The notes: generated from the letters alone by a model not told the origin. A stretch of 64,000 nucleotides of DNA from an uncultured Clostridia bacterium (GCA_964453645.1 CAYVRJ010000005.1:2808-66807); one strand, 5' to 3'; counted from the first letter of the stretch, positions 1,121 to 44,443 are shown. Numbers and translations are program-made.

Positions 1121-1205
1121 GCGGGCGTGGCGGAATTGGCAGACGCGCTAGACTTAGGATCTAGTGCCATACGGCGTGGGAGTTCAAGTCTCTTCGCCCG
1201 CACCA
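1121..1205 (+). tRNA. tRNA-Leu (anticodon TAG), long variable arm, CCA encoded
   Basis: Hand-folded cloverleaf: acceptor GCGGGCG/CGCCCGC, anticodon stem CTAGA/TCTAG with loop CTTAGGA, T-loop TTCAAGT, 3' ACCA. Confidence 0.9.
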
Positions 1206-1225
1206 ACAAGGCAAACGAATCATCT

Positions 1226-1299
1226 GCGGGTGTAGCTCAATGGTAGAGCCCCAGCCTTCCAAGCTGGTTGTGTGGGTTCGATTCCCATCACCCGCTCCA
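1226..1299 (+). tRNA. tRNA-Gly (anticodon TCC), CCA encoded
   Basis: Acceptor GCGGGTG/CACCCGC, D stem GCTC/GAGC, anticodon stem CCAGC/GCTGG with loop CTTCCAA, T-loop TTCGATT. Confidence 0.9.
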
Positions 1300-1316
1300 C
1301 CAATATAATTGAATAT

Positions 1317-1389
1317 GGGCCATTAGCTCAGTTGGTAGAGCACCTGACTCTTAATCAGGGTGTCCCGGGTTCGAATCCCTGATGGCCCA
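1317..1389 (+). tRNA. tRNA-Lys (anticodon CTT), CCA not encoded
   Basis: Acceptor GGGCCAT/ATGGCCC, D stem GCTC/GAGC, anticodon stem CCTGA/TCAGG with loop CTCTTAA, T-loop TTCGAAT. There is one C-T mismatch in the T stem. Confidence 0.85.
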
Positions 1390-1461
1390 TTCTTTTAGGA
1401 CAAGCATTATTTGATAGATAATTGCTTGTTTTTGTTTTATTGTTTCGTAGGATTCGAACCG
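1371..1461 (+). repeat. direct repeat copy 1: last 19 nt of tRNA-Lys plus terminator and 3' flank
   Basis: 91 bp, identical to 1531-1621 except one position (1454 t versus 1614 a). Confidence 0.95.
1400..1439 (+). terminator. intrinsic terminator after tRNA-Lys (second identical copy at 1560-1599)
   Basis: Stem ACAAGCA/TGCTTGT followed by TTTTGTTTTAT. Confidence 0.6.
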
Positions 1462-31427: not shown

Positions 31428-32759
31428 TTAAATATTTAACATAATATACACATTAAAAACGTTTTCCTCCCAGGAAAAACGCAGTTCTCCCCCGTTGCTG
31501 TTTACAATGTTGCGAATGGAGGGAATGCCGATGCCCGAACCGTTTTCTTTGGTGGTGGCAAACACCTCTCCCCGCTTGTTCAAAGTTTTGGGGGAAAAGC
31601 TGTTTTCTATTAAAATAAACAACTGCCCACCATTGGTGTGCACCCGCACCCGCAAAAACCTGGTGGTGCCCTCCTCCTGCATCAAGCAAGCGTCTACAGC
31701 GTTTTGAATGGCGTTGCCAAAGAGGATACAAAGGTCCGAATCGCTGATTTTAAGCACATCGGGCAGGGCAACGTGTACATAGGTTTGGATTCCCCTCTTG
31801 TTTGCAAGGGAAATATAATACCGAAGCACCATGTCCACCAACGGGTTGGCGCAAAGGGGTATTTCGGTGGATTCCATGTTACTCACATATCCCGACAAAT
31901 ATTCGTTTAACTTATTCAGTTCCCCCTGCTCAGCATAATTTTTAATTAAAAGGAGCTGGTGCCGCCAGTCGTGGCGCAGTTTTGCGGTTTCCTGAAGGTT
32001 TTGGGAAAGTTTCTCATAACTCTCCTTTTGGATTTTTAGCTGATTGCACATCATGTTAAACTTCTCCCGCTCCTTCATGGAATCGTGGGTTTTGATGAGC
32101 ATTTTCATGGCGATGGAGTAGATCATCACCATCACCCCCGTTAAAAAAATAAACAGCAGGATATCGACAAAATAGTTTTCCCCTGCATAATCCTTATGGT
32201 TGACAGCACCTATGTTGATGTATAGAAAAAACATTAGCGGAATGCAGGACAGTTTTCCCCAGTGGGCGTAGTCCTCATCGATATCCAACAGTTTCACAAA
32301 CAACACTTTAATTAAATACCAAAACACGGGTGCATAGATGAGCGCAGACAAATGGCTTGCCAAGGTAAAGTGATCCAAGGGAAATCCATCCAGCATGTTC
32401 ACCAGAACTTGGCAAAGGTACTGGACCGAACAATGGATGCTCAGCTTAATAAAATACACAAAGACCAATTGATATAGATTACACTTAAGAATGAGCACAA
32501 AGAATAAAAAGCCAAAAGTTGTCCAGATCAAAAAGGGTATGAGATCAAACGCGTGATAAACGTCCTCCCAGCTAAAGTATTGGATAATGGAGAGCCAAGA
32601 CAAAAGGACATAAATAGCCGTAAAAAAGGCCGTGGTTTTTACCCCAAACCGCAGTTTGTTTCTAATGGGATAGATAATAAAAAACAAAAAAACAAAGCCG
32701 CTCACCAAAAAAACATCAATGTGATCAAGAAAAATAATCACTTTGTCTAAAAAACTCAT
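31428..32759 (-). CDS. AgrC/LytS-like membrane sensor histidine kinase (GHKL ATPase), no cognate regulator nearby
   Basis: About 6-7 N-terminal TM segments, H-box region LRHDWRHQL, C-terminal GSGIGIPSIRNIV G-box. Confidence 0.75.
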   Translation of the reverse strand: MSFLDKVIIFLDHIDVFLVSGFVFLFFIIYPIRNKLRFGVKTTAFFTAIYVLLSWLSIIQYFSWEDVYHAFDLIPFLIWTTFGFLFFVLILKCNLYQLVFVYFIKLSIHCSVQYLCQVLVNMLDGFPLDHFTLASHLSALIYAPVFWYLIKVLFVKLLDIDEDYAHWGKLSCIPLMFFLYINIGAVNHKDYAGENYFVDILLFIFLTGVMVMIYSIAMKMLIKTHDSMKEREKFNMMCNQLKIQKESYEKLSQNLQETAKLRHDWRHQLLLIKNYAEQGELNKLNEYLSGYVSNMESTEIPLCANPLVDMVLRYYISLANKRGIQTYVHVALPDVLKISDSDLCILFGNAIQNAVDACLMQEEGTTRFLRVRVHTNGGQLFILIENSFSPKTLNKRGEVFATTKENGSGIGIPSIRNIVNSNGGELRFSWEENVFNVYIMLNI

Positions 32760-32783
32760 TATTTGACCTCAGTAACAGTTGAC

Positions 32784-32812
32784 AAAAGGGGCTGCTTGTG
32801 CATGCCCCTTTT
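32784..32812 (-). terminator. PFOR terminator (bidirectional-looking hairpin)
   Basis: AAAAGGGGC-11 nt-GCCCCTTTT, 16 nt after the nifJ stop. Confidence 0.6.
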
Positions 32813-32827
32813 GAAATATTGATATAT

Positions 32828-39359: not shown

Positions 39360-39519
39360 CAATATTGCTCGAAGTTGCCATAGACAGCAGGTGCGGTTCC
39401 GCTTAAAAGATTATGCCCGCCGAGGTGATGAACGTATAACCTATGTTTGTTATGCTCTTATCAAGGTGACTTTGAAAGAGCATTTTTATATTGAAGGTTA
39501 TAAGGAGGAGGTGAACAAT
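39360..39519 (+). promoter_or_regulatory. rplJ (L10) leader with attenuator-type terminator hairpin
   Basis: Hairpin ATGCTCTT-16 nt-AAGAGCAT (39452-39483) followed by TTTTTATATT, about 30 nt before the rplJ RBS. Firmicute rplJL operons are known to be autoregulated at a leader. Confidence 0.5.
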
Positions 39520-40456: not shown

Positions 40457-40489
40457 AAAGGCATGAGAATTCTTTCATGCCTTTTTTTG
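40457..40489 (+). terminator. rplL intrinsic terminator
   Basis: AAAGGCATGA-loop-TCATGCCTTT followed by TTTTT. Confidence 0.8.
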
Positions 40490-40518
40490 TTGCAAAATTT
40501 GTCGGAATATGGTATTGT
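40490..40518 (+). promoter_or_regulatory. promoter of small peptide gene 1
   Basis: TTGCAA, 17 nt, TATTGT with TG extension (TGGTATTGT). Nearly identical to 42057-42085. Confidence 0.55.
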
Positions 40519-40572
40519 GTGGTTGGGTGTTTGAAGCGGTAGGCGGTCTCCCTATAGAAGGGGGGTGAGCGC

Positions 40573-40647
40573 ATGCAGCAGAAACTAACGTTGGTCATTC
40601 TTTTTCTAATGACTCTGATAGTTCTGATTCTTGTTGCAAAAAACTAA
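40573..40647 (+). CDS. 24-aa hydrophobic peptide, candidate type I toxin
   Basis: MQQKLTLVILFLMTLIVLILVAKN, one TM helix. SD GGGGGGTGA lies 4 nt upstream. The 3' end overlaps a convergent small RNA. Confidence 0.5.
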   Translation: MQQKLTLVILFLMTLIVLILVAKN

Positions 40648-40728
40648 CCGTCCTCACTCGCAAAAATGTTGACGGTTAGCCTTTTAATCAATTAATTTGG
40701 GTGAGACCGTCCTATCGAACACCCACCA
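40637..40728 (-). ncRNA. candidate antisense small RNA 1 (approx 92 nt)
   Basis: Starts about 7 nt after a perfect consensus promoter. Ends at hairpin CTAACCGTC-18 nt-GACGGTTAG (40644-40679), which is followed by TTTTTT only on the minus strand. Confidence 0.5.
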
Positions 40729-40733
40729 TCTTT

Positions 40734-40762
40734 ATTATATTTCCCCTCTTTTAAAATGTCAA
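40734..40762 (-). promoter_or_regulatory. consensus promoter of small RNA 1
   Basis: Minus strand TTGACA (40762-40757), 17 nt, TATAAT (40739-40734). Confidence 0.6.
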
Positions 40763-40818
40763 TATTTCTTGCAGTGTTTGTGCACTTGATTTATAATGTA
40801 TGCGAGGAGGATGTGGCC

Positions 40819-42027
40819 ATGTGTGATACAATGGGTTTTATCAAAGGCGGTAACGCTTTCTTTGCCAAAAACAGCGACCGTAGTCCCAACGAACCTCAGG
40901 TTGTGGAATTTCATCCCGCCAAAAAGTGTGAGGAATCAATCCTTAAGGTTACCTATATTGAAATTCCCCAGGTAAAGCACACCCATGCCGTGCTGCTCTC
41001 CCGTCCCGCCTGGATGTGGGGTGCAGAGATTGGGGTGAACGATTGCGGGGTTTGCATCGGCAACGAAGCGGTGTTCACCAAAGGTTCCTATCCCCCCTCG
41101 GGGCTTACCGGCATGGATTTGCTGCGACTCGCCCTGGAGCGGGGAGACAGTGCAAAAGCTGCACTGGAACTCATCATAACCCAACTGGAAGAGCACGGCC
41201 AAGGGGGTAATTGCGGTTTTGATAAAAACTTTTACTACGACAACTCCTTCCTCATCATGGATACCAGCGAACTCTATATTTTAGAAACTTCGGCAAAGGA
41301 TTGGGTGTATAAAAAGGTAAACGTTGCCACTATTTCCAACAGATTGTCTATTGGCACAGATGGCACGGCATATCACGCGGGCACCCCCTATGACTTTAAA
41401 AAGAAACATTCCGATCCGGTGTATTCCCATTTTTCGGGTTCTAAGGAGCGCCAGCGCCAAACAGCAAGCTGCCTACCCGGTGCACGGGATGTGCTGGGCC
41501 TCATGTCTGCCCTGCGCACCCACGGTGAATTTGCGCAAAACCCCCTGACTTGCGGTAATGTCCGTTCGACCTGTATGCACGCCGGGGGCTTGATTGGCGA
41601 CCACACCACCCAAAGTATGATCGTTGAACTGGGTACGACCCCCATCATTTGGACGACGGGTTGTTCCACCCCCTGTATATCCGTCTTTAAACCCTATGCC
41701 TTTGGAAATGCACCTGTTGGCCCGGTATTTAAACCGGAAGATACCCAGAGCGCTCAGTATTGGTTGAAGCGAGAGGAATTTCACAGGAGTGTGATTGGAA
41801 AGCAACTTCCCTTTGAATATTATATGGAGCGGGATGCGTTGGAGCAAAGTTTTATAGACCGAGCCGATGGCCTTTCCCGGTTGGAAATGGAGCAACTCTC
41901 CCGCACTGCCCACGAGGAGGAGTGTGCCTTTTATAGCAAGTGGGGCAAACGGGTATTTGTTTCCCTACAGTGCTCCAGCCGGTTTTTAAATTATTGGAAA
42001 AAGAAAAACAGTACACTTAACAAATAA
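40819..42027 (+). CDS. peptidase C69 / secernin-like Ntn hydrolase
   Basis: The protein begins MCDT, placing the nucleophile Cys at residue 2, and carries AKNSDRSPNEPQ. ATG at 40819 lies 7 nt after GAGGAGGA. The track start at 40756 overlaps the small-RNA promoter and is rejected. Confidence 0.75.
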   Translation: MCDTMGFIKGGNAFFAKNSDRSPNEPQVVEFHPAKKCEESILKVTYIEIPQVKHTHAVLLSRPAWMWGAEIGVNDCGVCIGNEAVFTKGSYPPSGLTGMDLLRLALERGDSAKAALELIITQLEEHGQGGNCGFDKNFYYDNSFLIMDTSELYILETSAKDWVYKKVNVATISNRLSIGTDGTAYHAGTPYDFKKKHSDPVYSHFSGSKERQRQTASCLPGARDVLGLMSALRTHGEFAQNPLTCGNVRSTCMHAGGLIGDHTTQSMIVELGTTPIIWTTGCSTPCISVFKPYAFGNAPVGPVFKPEDTQSAQYWLKREEFHRSVIGKQLPFEYYMERDALEQSFIDRADGLSRLEMEQLSRTAHEEECAFYSKWGKRVFVSLQCSSRFLNYWKKKNSTLNK

Positions 42028-42056
42028 CTATTTCAACTTTTATGTATTTTTATGTA

Positions 42057-42085
42057 TTGCATTATTTGTAGAAACATGGTATTGT
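42057..42085 (+). promoter_or_regulatory. promoter of small peptide gene 2
   Basis: TTGCAT, 17 nt, TATTGT with TG extension. Paralogous to 40490-40518. Confidence 0.55.
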
Positions 42086-42154
42086 TGATACATAAGAGCG
42101 CACCCCTCGGGTGGACGGTTTTGTTCCCCAATACGAAAGATTGGGGGTGATACT

Positions 42155-42244
42155 ATGGATCTCAGCTTAGCATTACAACTGCTTCAGCTAGTAGTATCTG
42201 TTATCGCCTTAATTGTTGCAATTGAGCAGCTAAAGAGCCGATAA
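42155..42244 (+). CDS. 29-aa hydrophobic peptide, candidate type I toxin (holin-like-toxin resemblance)
   Basis: MDLSLALQLLQLVVSVIALIVAIEQLKSR. SD GGGGGTGA lies 4 nt upstream. The 3' end overlaps a convergent small RNA. Confidence 0.5.
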   Translation: MDLSLALQLLQLVVSVIALIVAIEQLKSR

Positions 42245-42334
42245 AACGAGAACAGCCGTCTATTTTCGACTGAACGGCTGTTCCGATTATAAACCGTTTT
42301 GTATGGAGCAGACCGTTCACCCGGTGTGCTCTTT
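42241..42334 (-). ncRNA. candidate antisense small RNA 2 (approx 94 nt)
   Basis: Consensus promoter upstream. Terminator GAACAGCCGT-14 nt-ACGGCTGTTC (42250-42283) is followed by TCGTTTTAT on the minus strand only. Confidence 0.5.
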
Positions 42335-42340
42335 GTATAT

Positions 42341-42369
42341 ATTATACAGTTCCCCTGGCACACTGTCAA
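42341..42369 (-). promoter_or_regulatory. consensus promoter of small RNA 2
   Basis: Minus strand TTGACA (42369-42364), 17 nt, TGTATAAT (42348-42341). Confidence 0.6.
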
Positions 42370-42444: not shown

Positions 42445-43443
42445 TTACTGTTGTGCCTGCTCCACTGCAACCGCAACTGCAACCGAAGCGCCAACCATGG
42501 GGTTGTTACCCATGCCGATGAGGCCCATCATTTCAACGTGTGCGGGAACGGAGGACGAACCTGCAAACTGTGCATCGCCGTGCATACGTCCCATGGTGTC
42601 GGTCATGCCATAGGAAGCGGGACCTGCTGCCATGTTGTCGGGGTGGAGGGTTCTGCCCGTACCGCCGCCGGATGCCACGGAGAAGTATTTCTTGCCGTTC
42701 TCATACGCCCACTTCTTATAAGTTCCCGCAACGGGGTGCTGGAATCTGGTGGGGTTGGTGGAGTTTCCGGTGATAGATACGTCCACGCTCTCCTTTTGCA
42801 TAATGGCAACGCCTTCCAAAACGTCGTTTGCGCCGTAGCACTTTACTTTGGCACGTTCGCCATCCGAATATGCCTTTTCGTAGTTAACTTTTAAATCACC
42901 TGTGTAGAAATCATAGGTGGTGTCCACATACGTAAAGCCGTTGATCCGGGAGATGATGAACGCTGCATCTTTGCCAAGGCCGTTGAGGATAACCCGCAGG
43001 GGTACGTTTCTCACTTTATTGGCTGTCTTTGCAATGCCGATAGCTCCCTCTGCCGCAGCAAAGGATTCGTGTCCTGCTAAGAAGCAGAAGCAGTTTGTCT
43101 CTTCACGAAGAAGCATTGCCGCTAAGTTGCCGTGGCCCAAACCAACTTGGCGCTGGTCTGCAACGGAACCGGGAATACAAAACGCCTGCAAGCCAATGCC
43201 AATGGCCTCAGCAGCGTCTGCTGCCTTCTTGCAGCCCTTCTTAAGAGCAATGGCGCAACCCAGCATATATGCATACACTGCGTTATCAAAGGCGATGGGC
43301 TGAACGCCCTTCACGATTTCATCCACATCGATGCCCTTAGATTTTGTAAACTCTTGAACTTCTTCTAAAGAAGCAAAGCCGTATTCTTTCAGGCATTTTT
43401 CAATTTGCTTGATTCTTCTGTCGTAACCTTCAAATCTAATCAT
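42445..43443 (-). CDS. GGGtGRT family protein (conserved, function unknown)
   Basis: 332 aa containing the eponymous SGGGTGRTLHPDN motif. Confidence 0.8.
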   Translation of the reverse strand: MIRFEGYDRRIKQIEKCLKEYGFASLEEVQEFTKSKGIDVDEIVKGVQPIAFDNAVYAYMLGCAIALKKGCKKAADAAEAIGIGLQAFCIPGSVADQRQVGLGHGNLAAMLLREETNCFCFLAGHESFAAAEGAIGIAKTANKVRNVPLRVILNGLGKDAAFIISRINGFTYVDTTYDFYTGDLKVNYEKAYSDGERAKVKCYGANDVLEGVAIMQKESVDVSITGNSTNPTRFQHPVAGTYKKWAYENGKKYFSVASGGGTGRTLHPDNMAAGPASYGMTDTMGRMHGDAQFAGSSSVPAHVEMMGLIGMGNNPMVGASVAVAVAVEQAQQ

Positions 43444-43460
43444 GGTTTTGCACCCCCTTC

Positions 43461-44153
43461 TTATTCGTGCCGGGGGTCAATGGTTTTGACCGCCTGAGCA
43501 AATCTGCCGTATGTACCGATGTTCTTTTCATACGCCTCTTTCACGTCCACACCCTTTTTGATGGCATCTAACATCTTACCCAAGTGCAGGAATTTATACC
43601 CGATCACTTCGCTGTTGTCATCCAGACCCATTTCTAAGATGTAACCCTCTGCCATTTCTAAGTATCTCACGCCCTTTTCCTTGGTGCCGAACATGGTGCC
43701 AACTTGTGAACGCAAGCCCTTGCCCAAGTCTTCCAGGCCAGCGCCAATGGGCAATCCGTCTTCGGAGAAAGCGGTTTGGGTTCTGCCGTATGCGATTTGC
43801 AAGAACAGCTCCCGCATTGCGGTGTTGATGGCATCGCACACCAAATCTGTGTTGAGCGCTTCCAAAACGGTTTTACCCGTCAACACTTCGCAAGCCATGG
43901 CCGCGGAGTGGGTCATACCCGAACAACCTAAGGTTTCGATTAACGCCTCTTCGATAATGCCGTCTTTGACGTTGAGGGTTAACTTGCACGCACCCTGCTG
44001 AGGCGCACACCAGCCCACACCGTGCGTTAAGCCTGAAATATCTTTAATTTCCTTGGCTTCCACCCATCTGCCCTCTTGGGGGATGGGGGCAGGACCGTGG
44101 CAAGGTCCTTTTTTTACGCAAATCATTTGTTCCACTTCATGGGAGAATTGCAC
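43461..44153 (-). CDS. NifU/IscU-like Fe-S scaffold-domain protein (partner of the GGGtGRT gene)
   Basis: Cys-containing GWCAPQQGAC and LGCSGMTHSAAMACE. GTG start at 44153 lies 8 nt after AAGGAGGG. The gene is 17 nt upstream of the GGGtGRT gene. Confidence 0.65.
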   Translation of the reverse strand: MQFSHEVEQMICVKKGPCHGPAPIPQEGRWVEAKEIKDISGLTHGVGWCAPQQGACKLTLNVKDGIIEEALIETLGCSGMTHSAAMACEVLTGKTVLEALNTDLVCDAINTAMRELFLQIAYGRTQTAFSEDGLPIGAGLEDLGKGLRSQVGTMFGTKEKGVRYLEMAEGYILEMGLDDNSEVIGYKFLHLGKMLDAIKKGVDVKEAYEKNIGTYGRFAQAVKTIDPRHE

Positions 44154-44443
44154 TTTATTTGCCCTCCTTGGTATTTTTAAAATAAAAGCTAAATAAATTA
44201 TACCACAGCTTGTACTAGCCATACAAATCTTTTTTTGTGAAAATTCGATCAATAGATACTGGAAATTTTAAAAGGGCTGTTTTAAACACTTTAAAAAGCC
44301 CCTTTTTACTATATTCTTTGTAATTATGCCTCTACTGTAACCGTTCCGCCACCAATGCCCACCGAGATGCAGCATCCCGGAACTGAAATACCAATTGAAG
44401 TAGAAGTTCAATATTCCCTTTAAACCCAAGAAACAAAAGCAGC

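What the first reader, a model, noticed from the sequence alone, without database searches (positions are those of the whole stretch)
40521..42334. Four copies of a GGGTG...GRMCGGTYT box at the 5' ends of both mRNAs and both small RNAs, in inverted pairs flanking a C69 peptidase gene
The two cassettes share near-identical promoters. Each transcript also begins with a related box. mRNA1 has GGGTGTTTGAAGCGGTAGGCGGTCTC (40521-40550). sRNA1 has GGGTGTTCGATAGGACGGTCTC (reverse complement of 40703-40727). mRNA2 has GGGTGGACGGTTTTG (within 42097-42124). sRNA2 has GGGTGAACGGTCTG (reverse complement of 42307-42334). Within each cassette the boxes are inverted repeats in the DNA, so the two convergent RNAs carry similar 5' sequences, not complementary ones. 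If the peptide mRNA reads through the weak plus-strand terminator, its 3' end would pair with its own 5' leader, giving a hok-like 5'-3' lock. Alternatively the box could be a shared protein- or ligand-binding element. The duplicated cassettes bracket the secernin-like peptidase gene (40819-42027), as if the three moved or duplicated as one unit.
Basis: seen in the sequence. Interest (0 to 1): 0.7.

Follow-up and report, generated by a model that had tools for sequence, protein, structure and literature searches.

The report
Twin-leader toxin–antitoxin RNA cassettes
The four repeated boxes are real: they are the shared 5' ends of the toxin mRNA and antisense RNA in two small toxin–antitoxin cassettes, which belong to an uncatalogued RNA family common in gut Clostridia and their phages.

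Summary
GGGTG..CGGTYT occurs exactly four times in 64 kb, each just downstream of a predicted promoter. Each pair brackets a 24- or 29-aa hydrophobic ORF and a bidirectional terminator.

Pattern scans recovered about 45 related loci in Oscillospiraceae and Ruminococcus genomes and about 27 in phage contigs. All share the architecture: a structured leader, a strong Shine-Dalgarno (SD) sequence, a 22-36 aa peptide, a terminator, and a convergent ~90-nt sRNA.

Covariance models built without the window find both window sRNAs (E=1.5e-7 and 1.4e-3) and both leaders (E=3e-10 and 6e-6) as the top hits. Rfam has no such family.

The box is a 5' module: a G-run, a small hairpin ending in (G/A)CGGU, and a C-rich anti-SD tract. 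In the mRNA it folds onto the SD. In the sRNA it folds on itself.

The two modules of one cassette change in concert, sharing substitutions and indels. This is unexplained.

The best reading is a type I toxin–antitoxin system. The 3' overlap resembles TxpA/RatA. The cis SD sequestration, and a possible trans anti-SD role for the sRNA, resemble par/Fst and SprA1AS.

The hok-like lock needs read-through and is not supported. The peptidase is not linked to cassettes elsewhere. No transcript, toxicity or repression has been tested.

The parts
40490..40518 (+). Promoter of peptide mRNA 1: TTGCAA, 17-nt spacer, extended -10 TGgTATTGT
   Evidence: Sequence. It is 78% identical to the cassette-2 promoter (D1), and the shared pattern is unique in the window. 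The TSS of about 40525 is inferred.
40525..40552 (+). Box 1 (mRNA1 5' module): GGGTGTTTGAAGCGGTAGGCGGTCTCCC, i.e. G-run, small hairpin, CGGTAGGCGGT core and anti-SD CTCCC
   Evidence: Pattern hit. The leader model R2, built without the window, scores 36.2 bits (E=3.4e-10) over 40525-40575.
40536..40579 (+). Imperfect hairpin in which the box pairs with the SD GGGGGGTGA and the ATG at 40573
   Evidence: MFE fold. The equivalent anti-SD/SD helix in the family is 85% paired, with compensatory changes at 2 pairs.
40573..40647 (+). ORF 1, 24 aa, MQQKLTLVILFLMTLIVLILVAKN (putative membrane toxin)
   Evidence: ORF list. It has no Pfam or NCBIfam hit and no profile similarity to the family peptides. 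Toxicity is inferred.
40638..40685 (.). Bidirectional terminator 1 (CTAACCGTC / GACGGTTAG). The stop codon lies in the 5' arm. The U-run is better on the minus strand.
   Evidence: Inverted repeat I2 and folds. The family terminator helix is 96% paired, with compensatory changes at 6 pairs.
40636..40727 (-). sRNA 1 (about 92 nt). It has a 5' hairpin at 40700-40727 that holds box 2, GGGTGTTCGATAGGACGGTCTCACCC, then a linker and a terminator hairpin. It overlaps the mRNA1 3' end by about 50 nt.
   Evidence: MFE -36 kcal/mol, z=-5.7. The family sRNA model R1 scores 39.9 bits, E=1.5e-7, the best hit in the window.
40734..40762 (-). Promoter of sRNA 1, TTGACA-N17-TATAAT (12 of 12)
40819..42027 (+). 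C69/U34-type peptidase gene (MCDT..., Cys2) with its own promoter (TTGCAG 40769 / TATAAT 40792). It is flanked by the cassettes but is not part of the family.
   Evidence: Homologues are annotated as peptidase U34, C69 dipeptidase or secernin. Six loci encoding four homologues have no cassette.
42057..42085 (+). Promoter of peptide mRNA 2: TTGCAT, 17-nt spacer, TGgTATTGT
   Evidence: The TSS of about 42092 is inferred.
42092..42131 (+). mRNA2 5' module, holding box 3 (GGGTGGACGGTTT at 42109-42121). The hairpin CACCC-CTC-GGGTG is followed by the anti-SD TTCCCCAAT. The inner hairpin of the family is missing.
   Evidence: R2 scores 24.3 bits, E=5.7e-6 over 42109-42157 and skips 16 model positions.
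42125..42147 (+). Anti-SD/SD hairpin of mRNA2 (TCCCCAAT / ATTGGGGG), just upstream of the ATG at 42155
   Evidence: MFE fold (fourth sequence); the hairpin is kept in the full-length folds.
42155..42244 (+). ORF 2, 29 aa, MDLSLALQLLQLVVSVIALIVAIEQLKSR (putative membrane toxin)
   Evidence: ORF list. It is called as a gene on same-species contigs. It shows weak in-register similarity to the family peptide profile (hhalign P=3.7e-4).
42250..42283 (.). Bidirectional terminator 2 (GAACAGCCGTC / GAACGGCTGTTC)
   Evidence: Inverted repeat I20, terminator scan, folds.
42242..42334 (-). sRNA 2 (about 93 nt). It has a 5' hairpin at 42306-42331 that holds box 4 (GGGTGAACGGTCT), then a linker and a terminator hairpin. 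It overlaps the mRNA2 3' end and the stop codon.
   Evidence: MFE -34.5 kcal/mol, z=-5.1. R1 scores 24.0 bits, E=0.0014, the second-best hit in the window. There is a weak Rfam RatA match (23.4 bits against a gathering score of 49).
42341..42369 (-). Promoter of sRNA 2, TTGACA-N17-TATAAT (12 of 12)

Best explanation
The locus holds two copies of a type I toxin-antitoxin-like cassette. They belong to an RNA family that is absent from Rfam and widespread in Oscillospiraceae/Ruminococcaceae genomes and their phages.

Each cassette makes two RNAs:
- a short mRNA for a 24-29 aa hydrophobic peptide;
- a convergent sRNA of about 90 nt, driven by a consensus promoter, that is perfectly complementary to the last ~50 nt of the mRNA (stop codon plus terminator).

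The 'box' is the common 5' module of both RNAs. It consists of a G-rich 5' end, a small hairpin ending in (G/A)CGGU(Y), and a C-rich anti-Shine-Dalgarno tract.
- In the mRNA the C-tract, and in cassette 1 most of the box, folds back on the strong SD GGRGGUGA and the start codon. The toxin message is therefore made in a translationally closed form.
- In the sRNA the same module folds on itself: the G-run pairs with the C-tract around the small hairpin.

Proposed action. The abundant sRNA captures the mRNA through the 3' overlap, starting at the terminator loops and extending to a duplex that is a substrate for RNase III-type decay, as in TxpA/RatA. Its 5' module supplies a spare anti-SD that can cover the SD in trans when the leader opens or is clipped, as par RNA II and SprA1AS do.

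What is shown: the architecture, the family membership, the conservation of the module in both RNAs, and covariation for the sRNA terminator, the sRNA 5' outer helix and the mRNA anti-SD/SD helix.

What is inferred: that the RNAs are made with these ends, that the peptides are toxic, that the sRNA represses, and the trans anti-SD step.
For: Observation. All 4 box copies sit right after predicted promoters.

Family.
- A viral scan gave 34 loci, about 27 with leader + SD + 26-31 aa peptide + convergent sRNA.
- A genome scan gave about 45 real loci, all but one (a Lachnospira MAG) in Oscillospiraceae/Ruminococcaceae-type Clostridia (Oscillospiraceae, Ruminococcus, Acutalibacteraceae, Ruthenibacterium).
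- The loci were chosen by the mRNA leader alone. Even so, the opposite strand carries TTGACx-N17-TATAAT followed by ..GGGNG-CUGCGAUAAGCGGUU-CNCCC.. in 36 distinct sRNA sequences from about 34 loci, with CGATAAGCGGT more than 90% invariant.

Membership, using models built without the window.
- sRNA model R1 finds sRNA1 (39.9 bits, E=1.5e-7) and sRNA2 (24.0 bits, E=1.4e-3) as the two best hits in 64 kb.
- Leader model R2 finds leader 1 (36.2 bits, E=3.4e-10) and leader 2 (24.3 bits, E=5.7e-6).
- R1 hits none of the roughly 60 high-GC chance loci among the 120 fetched, and hits nearly all of the low-GC loci that carry the leader.

Structure.
- Every sRNA folds as a 5' hairpin plus a terminator.
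- On 50 distinct sRNAs, 86% of cells are paired against 37-62% in slid controls. The covariation score is 0.287 against 0.145 (0 of 500 shuffles reach it). Compensatory changes occur in the terminator (6 pairs) and in the 5' outer helix (3 pairs).
- The leader helices are 85.6% paired against 47-66% in controls.

Trans anti-SD. With the cis arm removed, the sRNA C-tract pairs with the SD in W1 (7 bp, CUCACCC:GGGUGAG), L004 (14 bp) and L003. By-eye complementarity is 5-9 bp in most other loci.

Peptides. The family peptides form one alignment, MxTxxELxxF...IxL...NKK. Several sit at the Pfam Hol_Tox threshold (24.0, 23.2, 22.8 and 21.4 bits against 23.3). Fozo et al. 2010 link the 'holin-like toxin' annotation to the TxpA family.

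Literature on the comparison systems.
Against: - No expression data exist. TSS, 3' ends, toxicity and repression are all untested.
- With intact leaders, the pseudo-cofolds show no invasion of the SD hairpin by the sRNA. With clipped leaders the trans SD pairing appears in only 3 of 6 cases, and not in W2, L096 or L142.
- In L128 the sRNA C-tract is degenerate.
- The C-tract of the sRNA is itself base-paired, with covariation.
- Hairpin plus anti-SD function does not explain why the two modules of one cassette share substitutions and indels.
- The window peptides have no Pfam or NCBIfam hit. The W1 peptide shows no similarity to the family peptides.
- The leader covariation is limited because the search pattern fixed one arm, and alignments A3 and A4 were fitted to the models.
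Confidence: 0.6

Rival explanations
1. Hok-like 5'-3' lock. The peptide mRNA reads through the weak terminator. Its 3' extension is antisense to the sRNA 5' module, so it pairs with the mRNA's own 5' box. This gives an inert or RNase III-sensitive panhandle. Selection for that pairing would keep the two boxes alike.
For: - Read-through versions fold into long 5'-3' helices: mRNA1 at -73.3 against -48.7 kcal/mol, and mRNA2 at -100.3 against -71.3 kcal/mol.
- This reading would explain the concerted change of the two modules, including shared indels.
- The plus-strand U-tracts in the window are weak (CCUUUUAAUC).
- Even the terminated mRNA2 pairs its box GACGGUUU with the 3' AAACCGUU.
Against: - In the mRNA1 read-through fold the anti-SD is taken by the 3' extension and the SD is left open, so the fold is not a lock.
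- The mRNA terminators read by eye in L003, L004 and L006 are followed by runs of 3-5 U.
- Read-through polymerases would meet a consensus convergent promoter.
- A conserved 4-8 nt insertion in the mRNA module interrupts the helix in every variant.
- No evidence of read-through exists.
Confidence: 0.12
2. The box is a copy of the terminator 3' arm and pairs with the terminator 5' arm (AACCGC-type). This would give a long-distance interaction inside the mRNA that competes with the 5' hairpin. sRNA binding at the 3' end would then be transmitted to the SD region, a bsrG/SR4-like conformational switch.
For: - Box GCGGUU matches the terminator 3' arm GCGGUUAU in the family.
- In MVTY-type loci the leader UAGGCGGUU is complementary over 9 nt to the 3'UTR AACCGCCUA.
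- MFE folds of L006, L054, L059, L110, L129 and L153 mRNAs use this long-range helix instead of the terminator.
- The box follows the terminator in the window: in W1, AGGACGGU occurs both in the box and in the arm; in W2, box GAACGGUCUG pairs with arm CAGCCGUUC over 9 bp plus a bulge.
- The SR4 precedent is described.
Against: - The terminator hairpin (11-13 bp) is far more stable than the 6-9 bp alternative.
- About half of the family MFE folds keep the 5' hairpin and the terminator.
- L050 and L147 have ACGG arms but GCGG boxes.
- No statistics could be run because the script engine was lost.
- It gives no clear role for the box in the sRNA.
Confidence: 0.18
3. Shared binding site, or decoy. 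The common 5' module is recognised by one trans factor, such as an RNase, an RNA-binding protein or the 30S subunit, that processes or opens the toxin leader. The abundant sRNA carries the same module and titrates that factor, as GlmY does for GlmZ.
For: - The core CGAUAAGCGGU is conserved as sequence even where the pairing register of the small hairpin shifts.
- The modules of the two RNAs stay alike in at least 7 sequence variants.
- Intact leaders are not predicted to be invaded by the sRNA.
Against: - The module sequence differs strongly between variants in one genome (W1 against W2). A single host factor would not easily read both.
- No candidate protein gene travels with the cassettes.
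- The support is purely inferential.
Confidence: 0.12
4. The twin-ness has no RNA-level function. The sRNA gene arose by inverted duplication of the promoter-leader segment, and the two copies are kept alike by gene conversion or quasi-palindrome template switching. Each 5' hairpin only protects its RNA from 5' decay, and the antitoxin works solely through the 3' overlap.
For: - Shared indels are best explained by sequence exchange. Examples are W2, where both modules lack the inner hairpin, and L114, where the first 15 nt are identical.
- Phage contigs show modular exchange of cassette interiors between identical flanks (L003, L005, L022).
- The overlap of about 50 nt is sufficient in TxpA/RatA.
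- A 5' helix stabilises par RNA I.
Against: - Conversion should also erase the mRNA-specific insertion, yet that insertion is kept in every variant.
- The core is invariant across sRNAs from at least six named genera or families of Clostridia, which indicates purifying selection on sequence.
Confidence: 0.2
5. DNA-level element. The boxes are terminal inverted repeats of a mobile or invertible cassette, i.e. a MITE-like element or an inverton that swaps the two promoters.
For: Inverted repeats of 25-40 bp bracket a segment of about 200 bp. Cassettes occur in arrays, in phages and in varied contexts.
Against: - Conservation continues outside the repeats into both promoters.
- No recombinase or transposase is linked.
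- No target-site duplications were seen.
- An inversion would put the toxin under the stronger promoter.
- No inverted isoform was seen among the roughly 70 loci.
Confidence: 0.04

Closest known systems
TxpA/RatA of Bacillus subtilis and TxpA-family 'holin-like toxin' loci such as E. faecalis EF3263 (Pfam PF16935 Hol_Tox; Rfam RF01776)
   Same: - A convergent sRNA overlaps the 3' end of a small membrane-peptide mRNA.
- The SD is very strong (GGAGGUGA).
- Loci lie in prophages.
- Several family peptides reach or touch the Hol_Tox threshold.
- sRNA2 gives a weak RatA match.
- A duplex as RNase III substrate is the plausible action.
   Different: - The peptides are half the size (22-36 aa against 59 aa).
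- The sRNA is about 90 nt against 222 nt.
- The window peptides do not match Hol_Tox.
- The RatA score is far below gathering (23 against 49).
- The shared 5' module in both RNAs is not mentioned for TxpA/RatA in the reviews I read.
par (Fst / RNA I-RNA II) of Enterococcus faecalis pAD1 and its homologue SprA1/SprA1AS of S. aureus
   Same: - Convergent promoters and a shared bidirectional terminator.
- A 5' stem-loop that sequesters the SD in cis.
- An antitoxin 5' region with complementarity to the translation start region, so that regulation can occur through the 5' ends although the genes overlap at the 3' ends.
   Different: - In par the repeats are direct in the DNA and make the two 5' ends complementary. 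Here the conspicuous repeats are inverted and make the 5' ends alike. The complementarity to the SD is only 5-14 nt and lies within the sRNA's own hairpin.
- The peptides lack the Fst PXXXG(C) motif.
- In the window and in most family loci, but not in some such as L003, the overlap includes the stop codon and the last codons.
hok/sok and other mRNAs with a 5'-3' long-distance lock (AapA1/IsoA1)
   Same: The small toxin mRNA is made in a closed form. There is potential pairing between the 5' box and 3' sequences.
   Different: - The antisense RNA lies at the 3' end, not over the 5' or translation-initiation region.
- The long panhandle needs read-through.
- There is no evidence for 3' processing.
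- The hosts are Gram-positive.
bsrG/SR4 of B. subtilis
   Same: A 3'-overlapping antitoxin from a stronger promoter. Binding at the 3' end could tighten SD sequestration.
   Different: There is no sequence relation, and the coupling here is only a hypothesis.

Membership tests
Oscillospiraceae/phage twin-leader cassette family (defined here by models R1 and R2) | A ~90-nt sRNA with a 5' hairpin (G-run / small hairpin ending in CGGU / C-tract) and a terminator hairpin | tested here: met
   R1, built without the window, scores sRNA1 at 39.9 bits (E=1.5e-7) and sRNA2 at 24.0 bits (E=1.4e-3). These are the top two hits in 64 kb. sRNA2 is a divergent member that lacks the inner hairpin.
Oscillospiraceae/phage twin-leader cassette family (defined here by models R1 and R2) | A leader with GGGUG, a CGGU core, an anti-SD/SD hairpin and GGRGGUGA, then a 22-36 aa ORF | tested here: met
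   R2 scores leader 1 at 36.2 bits (E=3.4e-10) and leader 2 at 24.3 bits (E=5.7e-6). The ORFs are 24 and 29 aa.
Type I toxin-antitoxin system (generic) | A small hydrophobic peptide gene with a cis-encoded overlapping antisense RNA | tested here: met
   This holds in silico only, from ORFs, consensus promoters, a bidirectional terminator and covariation in the sRNA.
Type I toxin-antitoxin system (generic) | The peptide is toxic on overexpression and the RNA neutralises it | not testable with these tools
   This needs expression experiments.
TxpA/RatA (Hol_Tox PF16935, RatA RF01776) | The toxin matches the Hol_Tox/TxpA profile | tested here: not met
   The window peptides give no Pfam hit at E<=1. 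Family relatives score 24.0, 23.2, 22.8 and 21.4 bits against a cut-off of 23.3. The W2 peptide is weakly similar to the family profile (P=3.7e-4).
TxpA/RatA (Hol_Tox PF16935, RatA RF01776) | The antitoxin matches the RatA covariance model | tested here: not met
   sRNA2 scores 23.4 bits against a gathering score of 49 (E=5). sRNA1 gives no match. The canonical members L004 and L103 give no match either.
TxpA/RatA (Hol_Tox PF16935, RatA RF01776) | Convergent genes overlapping at the 3' ends | tested here: met
   The predicted overlaps are about 50 nt: 40638-40688 and 42242-42295.
par / Fst-RNA II (and SprA1/SprA1AS) | Convergent promoters sharing a bidirectional intrinsic terminator | tested here: met
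par / Fst-RNA II (and SprA1/SprA1AS) | Direct repeats transcribed in opposite directions that make the antitoxin 5' end complementary to the SD/start region | tested here: inconclusive
   W1 has the 7-nt direct repeat GGGTGAG (SD against the sRNA1 gene). W2 has 6 nt, UAUGGA, at the start codon. L004 has 14 nt. The pairing is predicted only for clipped leaders and in 3 of 6 cases.
par / Fst-RNA II (and SprA1/SprA1AS) | An intramolecular 5' stem-loop sequestering the SD | tested here: met
par / Fst-RNA II (and SprA1/SprA1AS) | An Fst-type toxin (PXXXG(C) motif and a conserved Trp) | tested here: not met
   Neither window peptide contains Pro, Gly, Cys or Trp (sequences).
hok/sok-type fold-back inhibition | The 3' end of the full-length mRNA pairs with the 5' end and blocks translation, and activation comes from 3' processing | tested here: inconclusive
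   Pairing is predicted for mRNA2 (8 bp) and is weak for mRNA1 in the terminated forms. The long helix forms only with read-through and then frees the SD of mRNA1. Processing is not testable here.
hok/sok-type fold-back inhibition | The antisense RNA is complementary to the 5' leader or translation-initiation region of the mRNA | tested here: not met
   The sRNA genes lie at the 3' end.

The most novel reading that the evidence does not exclude
The antitoxin works partly by mimicry, not only by antisense pairing. Its 5' domain is a maintained replica of the toxin leader's inhibitory 5' arm. It would either replace that arm in trans after the leader is clipped, or act as a decoy for the factor that opens or processes the leader. 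Selection on this replica relationship, not gene conversion alone, would then keep the two 5' modules co-evolving.
Probability: 0.15. Interest if true: 0.8.

Novelty: new variant of a known kind. Interest (0 to 1): 0.55.

Why it matters
[quoted passage not shown] The term 'Ruminococc' does not occur in the T1TAdb paper, and Rfam holds no model for these RNAs.

This finding defines a compact, easily searchable RNA family. The two covariance models separate true from chance loci cleanly. The family marks dozens of cassettes in dominant gut Clostridia and their phages, often in arrays.

The RNA scaffold is more conserved than the peptide it controls. The toxin mRNA and the antitoxin carry the same 5' module, which changes in concert. 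Neither the par model (complementary 5' ends) nor the RatA model (3' overlap only) predicts this.

It gives a testable case for how cis and trans SD sequestration are combined. If the mimicry reading holds, it would show a new way for an RNA antitoxin to act.

In practice the models would improve annotation of small ORFs and sRNAs in gut metagenomes and phage genomes.

Tried and rejected
- Rfam. No family reaches gathering over the locus or over the canonical members L004 and L103. Only a sub-threshold RatA hit was seen.
- Protein searches with the peptides. The search for homologous proteins refuses queries shorter than 40 aa. Pfam and NCBIfam find nothing for the window peptides.
- BLAST of cassette 2 and of a canonical cassette against annotated phages. 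This gave no hit and one unannotated hit respectively.
- Scans for cassette-2-like sequences. GAGCRCACC..GGGTGRACGGT gave 0 viral hits. GGGTGRACGGT..CCCC..GGGGGTGA gave 1 viral and 11 metagenome hits. All were chance, with no R1 hit and only weak R2 scores. Cassette 2 therefore remains a lineage-specific divergent member.
- The genome scan pattern was GC-rich. About 60 of its 120 loci were chance hits in Actinobacteria and other high-GC taxa. They were recognised by the absence of an ORF and the absence of R1 hits.
- Linkage to the peptidase. This was rejected after six loci encoding four homologues showed no cassette.
- MITE or inverton reading. This was rejected because conservation runs into the flanking promoters and no recombinase is linked.
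- Antitermination by the box. This was judged unlikely because the terminator is much more stable than the alternative helix.
- A planned permutation test of cognate against non-cognate sRNA-mRNA and arm-arm duplex energies could not be run. The script machine was lost. Only pseudo-cofolds of six pairs were done.
- RNAalifold on the raw MAFFT alignment missed the 5' hairpin because of register shifts. This was resolved by using model-fitted alignments.

Full report
**1. What is in the window**

Downstream of rplA-rplJ-rplL and the rplL terminator (40457-40484) lie two similar cassettes, both in the same orientation. The L10 leader sits at 39360-39497. The cassettes flank a C69/U34-type peptidase gene (40819-42027) that has its own promoter.

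Each cassette has the following parts:
- A plus-strand promoter with an extended -10 (TTGCAA/TTGCAT, 17-nt spacer, TGgTATTGT). The two copies are 78% identical over 37 nt, and the shared pattern is unique in the window.
- A leader of 48-63 nt.
- A strong Shine-Dalgarno (SD) sequence (GGGGGGTGA / GGGGGTGA).
- A 24-aa or 29-aa hydrophobic ORF: 40573-40647 (MQQKLTLVILFLMTLIVLILVAKN) and 42155-42244 (MDLSLALQLLQLVVSVIALIVAIEQLKSR).
- A palindromic terminator, which in cassette 1 contains the stop codon and in cassette 2 starts 5 nt after it.
- On the minus strand, a perfect TTGACA-N17-TATAAT promoter. Only four such sites exist in 64 kb; the other two drive a tRNA operon and rpsU.

The minus-strand transcripts would be about 92 nt. 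They fold into a 5' hairpin plus a strong terminator hairpin (-36 and -34.5 kcal/mol, z = -5.7 and -5.1).

**2. The observation**

All four lie just downstream of the four promoters.

In cassette 1 the boxes start at about +1. In cassette 2 they lie 12-16 nt inside the predicted transcripts, and the similarity between the two RNAs starts right after the -10. Transcript ends are predictions.

**3. It is a family**

A viral-contig scan with consensus promoter plus box returned 34 loci. About 27 of them have the same architecture.

About half were chance hits in high-GC genomes with no ORF. About 45 were real loci, all but one (a Lachnospira MAG) in Oscillospiraceae/Ruminococcaceae-type Clostridia: Oscillospiraceae, Ruminococcus, Acutalibacteraceae, Ruthenibacterium and related MAGs. 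Each real locus has a 22-36 aa peptide directly after the SD.

These loci were selected only through the mRNA leader. Nevertheless almost all carry, on the opposite strand, TTGACx-N17-T(G)nTATAAT followed by AAAGGG(N)G-CUGCGAUAAGCGGUU-C(N)CCC, a linker, and a terminator hairpin that overlaps the toxin 3' end. The core CGATAAGCGGT is more than 90% invariant.

I built covariance models from these relatives, leaving the window out.
- The sRNA model R1 finds the window's sRNA1 (39.9 bits, E=1.5e-7) and sRNA2 (24.0 bits, E=1.4e-3) as its two best hits.
- The leader model R2 finds leader 1 (36.2 bits, E=3.4e-10) and leader 2 (24.3 bits, E=5.7e-6).
- R1 hits none of the chance loci and nearly all of the low-GC loci that carry the leader. 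It also reveals tandem arrays (L099, L113, L147, L149, L140, L114) and an orphan sRNA.

Rfam 15 has no matching family for the window or for canonical members. Only a sub-threshold RatA match to sRNA2 was seen.

**4. Anatomy of the box**

In the sRNA:
- The G-rich 5' end pairs with a C-rich tract. Between them sits a small hairpin (CUGC-GAUAA-GCGG or variants).
- On 50 distinct sRNAs, 86% of cells are paired against 37-62% in slid controls.
- The terminator helix has compensatory changes at 6 pairs and the 5' outer helix at 3 pairs. The covariation score is 0.287 against 0.145 in shuffles, and 0 of 500 shuffles reach it. The alignment was fitted to the model.

In the mRNA:
- The same elements occur, with an extra 4-8 nt (CGGUAG in the main type) that extends the small hairpin.
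- The C-tract pairs with the SD. The leader helices are 85.6% paired against 47-66% in controls, with compensatory changes at 2 pairs of the SD helix.
- In cassette 1 of the window nearly the whole box forms the upstream arm of an imperfect hairpin over the SD and the AUG.
- In cassette 2 both the mRNA and the sRNA lack the inner hairpin. Both have instead an upstream CACC(C) that pairs with GGGUG.

The box is therefore the 5' structural module that carries the anti-SD.

**5. The twin property**

Within a cassette the two modules share substitutions and indels. This holds in at least seven sequence variants:
- the main type (UGC...GGUU in both RNAs);
- the 'MPLIITFHVFG' type (GCC...GGUC in both);
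- L039 (ACC...GGUC);
- the second cassette of L060 (CGGUUAGCC in both);
- the second cassette of L114 (the first 15 nt are identical);
- the L099 array;
- W1 and W2.

A hairpin-plus-anti-SD function does not require this, so I flag it as unexplained. Candidate causes are gene conversion between the inverted repeats, selection for a panhandle in read-through RNAs, a common protein partner, or a common RNA partner.

On the last option: the box GCGGUU is a copy of the terminator 3' arm and is complementary to the 5' arm AACCGC. In W2 the box GAACGGUCUG matches CAGCCGUUC. Several family mRNAs fold with this long-range helix in their MFE structure.

**6. How it probably works**

The architecture is that of Gram-positive type I toxin-antitoxin systems with a 3'-overlapping antitoxin.

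The family peptides align as one family, MxTxxELxxF...IxL...NKK. Several sit at the Pfam Hol_Tox threshold. Hol_Tox carries the 'holin-like toxin' annotation, which Fozo et al. 2010 associate with TxpA-family members. The W2 peptide is weakly similar in register (P=3.7e-4). The W1 peptide is not. The RNA scaffold is thus better conserved than the peptide.

I commit to this model:
- The leader box keeps the SD closed in cis from the moment of synthesis.
- The abundant sRNA binds the ~50-nt 3' overlap and triggers decay, as RatA does.
- Its 5' module offers a second anti-SD that can act in trans when the leader is open or clipped, as par RNA II and SprA1AS do.

The last step is the weakest. Pseudo-cofolds show no invasion of intact leaders. 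With clipped leaders the trans SD pairing appears in W1, L004 and L003 but not in W2, L096 or L142.

**7.

The hok-like lock:
- It forms in silico only for read-through RNAs, and in mRNA1 it exposes the SD.
- The mRNA terminators I read by eye in L003, L004 and L006 end in runs of 3-5 U.
- The antisense RNA is at the 3' end.
- I rate this reading at about 0.12.

A shared protein site cannot be excluded.

The 'three moved as one unit' idea is not supported. Four peptidase homologues (58-61% identity), read in six loci, have different neighbours and no R1 hit. The closest homologue outside the species is only 62% identical. In no related locus whose neighbourhood I read is a peptidase gene next to a cassette.

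**8. Limits**

- Everything here is computational.
- The script engine failed, so the planned cognate against non-cognate statistics are missing.
- The genome scan fixed part of the leader sequence. This limits leader covariation and means the family is certainly wider than what was sampled.
- The model-fitted alignments lean towards the modelled structure.

**9. Verdict**

This is a real, non-chance feature. It is a new RNA family of a known kind of system, the type I toxin-antitoxin. Its unusual and unexplained property is that the toxin mRNA and the antitoxin sRNA carry the same co-evolving 5' module.

Noticed in passing
window 1121-1390, 1370-1455 and 1521-1606, 1710-2319: A tRNA-Leu/Gly/Lys cluster sits behind a consensus promoter. 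The 3' end of tRNA-Lys plus about 65 nt downstream is repeated directly about 150 nt further on, which looks like an att-type duplication. It is followed by a HicA/HicB toxin-antitoxin pair (Pfam 84.8 and 47 bits).
   Followed up: partly
L054 572-667 (+): This is an orphan family sRNA (R1 43.4 bits) with its promoter and terminator but no toxin leader or ORF upstream of the terminator. Only a few C-terminal codons seem to remain.
   Followed up: partly
L099 4960-6160; also L113, L147, L149, L140, L114: Cassettes form tandem arrays. L099 has three with a period of about 400 bp. Its leaders have an extra upstream hairpin and two successive C-tract/G-tract hairpins before a 25- or 36-aa ORF.
   Followed up: partly
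Family toxin promoters, e.g. the 'up' sequences of L096, L103, L110, L128, L149 and L153: Many toxin promoters contain a covarying palindrome (CACCC+N ... -10 ... N+GGGTG) that spans the -10 box. On the opposite strand it is followed by a T-run. It may terminate antisense read-through, or it may be an operator. The window cassettes lack it.
   Followed up: no
L003, L005, L022, L004 (viral contigs): Identical phage flanks are combined with different cassette interiors (toxin types A and C). The apparent break points lie at the conserved promoter/box segments, which suggests modular exchange of cassettes.
   Followed up: no
Family mRNAs, e.g. L003, L046, L063: The SD-to-start segment GGUGAUAAC is predicted to pair with an ORF-internal GUUAUCAC(U)C. 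This would be a second layer of start-site sequestration. The same GAUAA pentamer is the invariant loop of the sRNA small hairpin.
   Followed up: no
window 40644-40652, and most family loci: The toxin stop codon lies inside the 5' arm of the terminator (UAACCG...). A terminating ribosome would therefore melt the hairpin that the sRNA also targets.
   Followed up: no
window 32725-32814 (-): There is a weak R1 hit (16.3 bits, E=0.11) on a GGGGCAUGCACAAGCAGCCCC-UUUU hairpin. It is most likely an ordinary terminator.
   Followed up: no
window 42445-44252 (-): Downstream neighbours on the minus strand are a GGGtGRT-family protein (Pfam 650 bits) and a NifU-like protein. rpoB and rpoC do not follow rplL here.
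   Followed up: no
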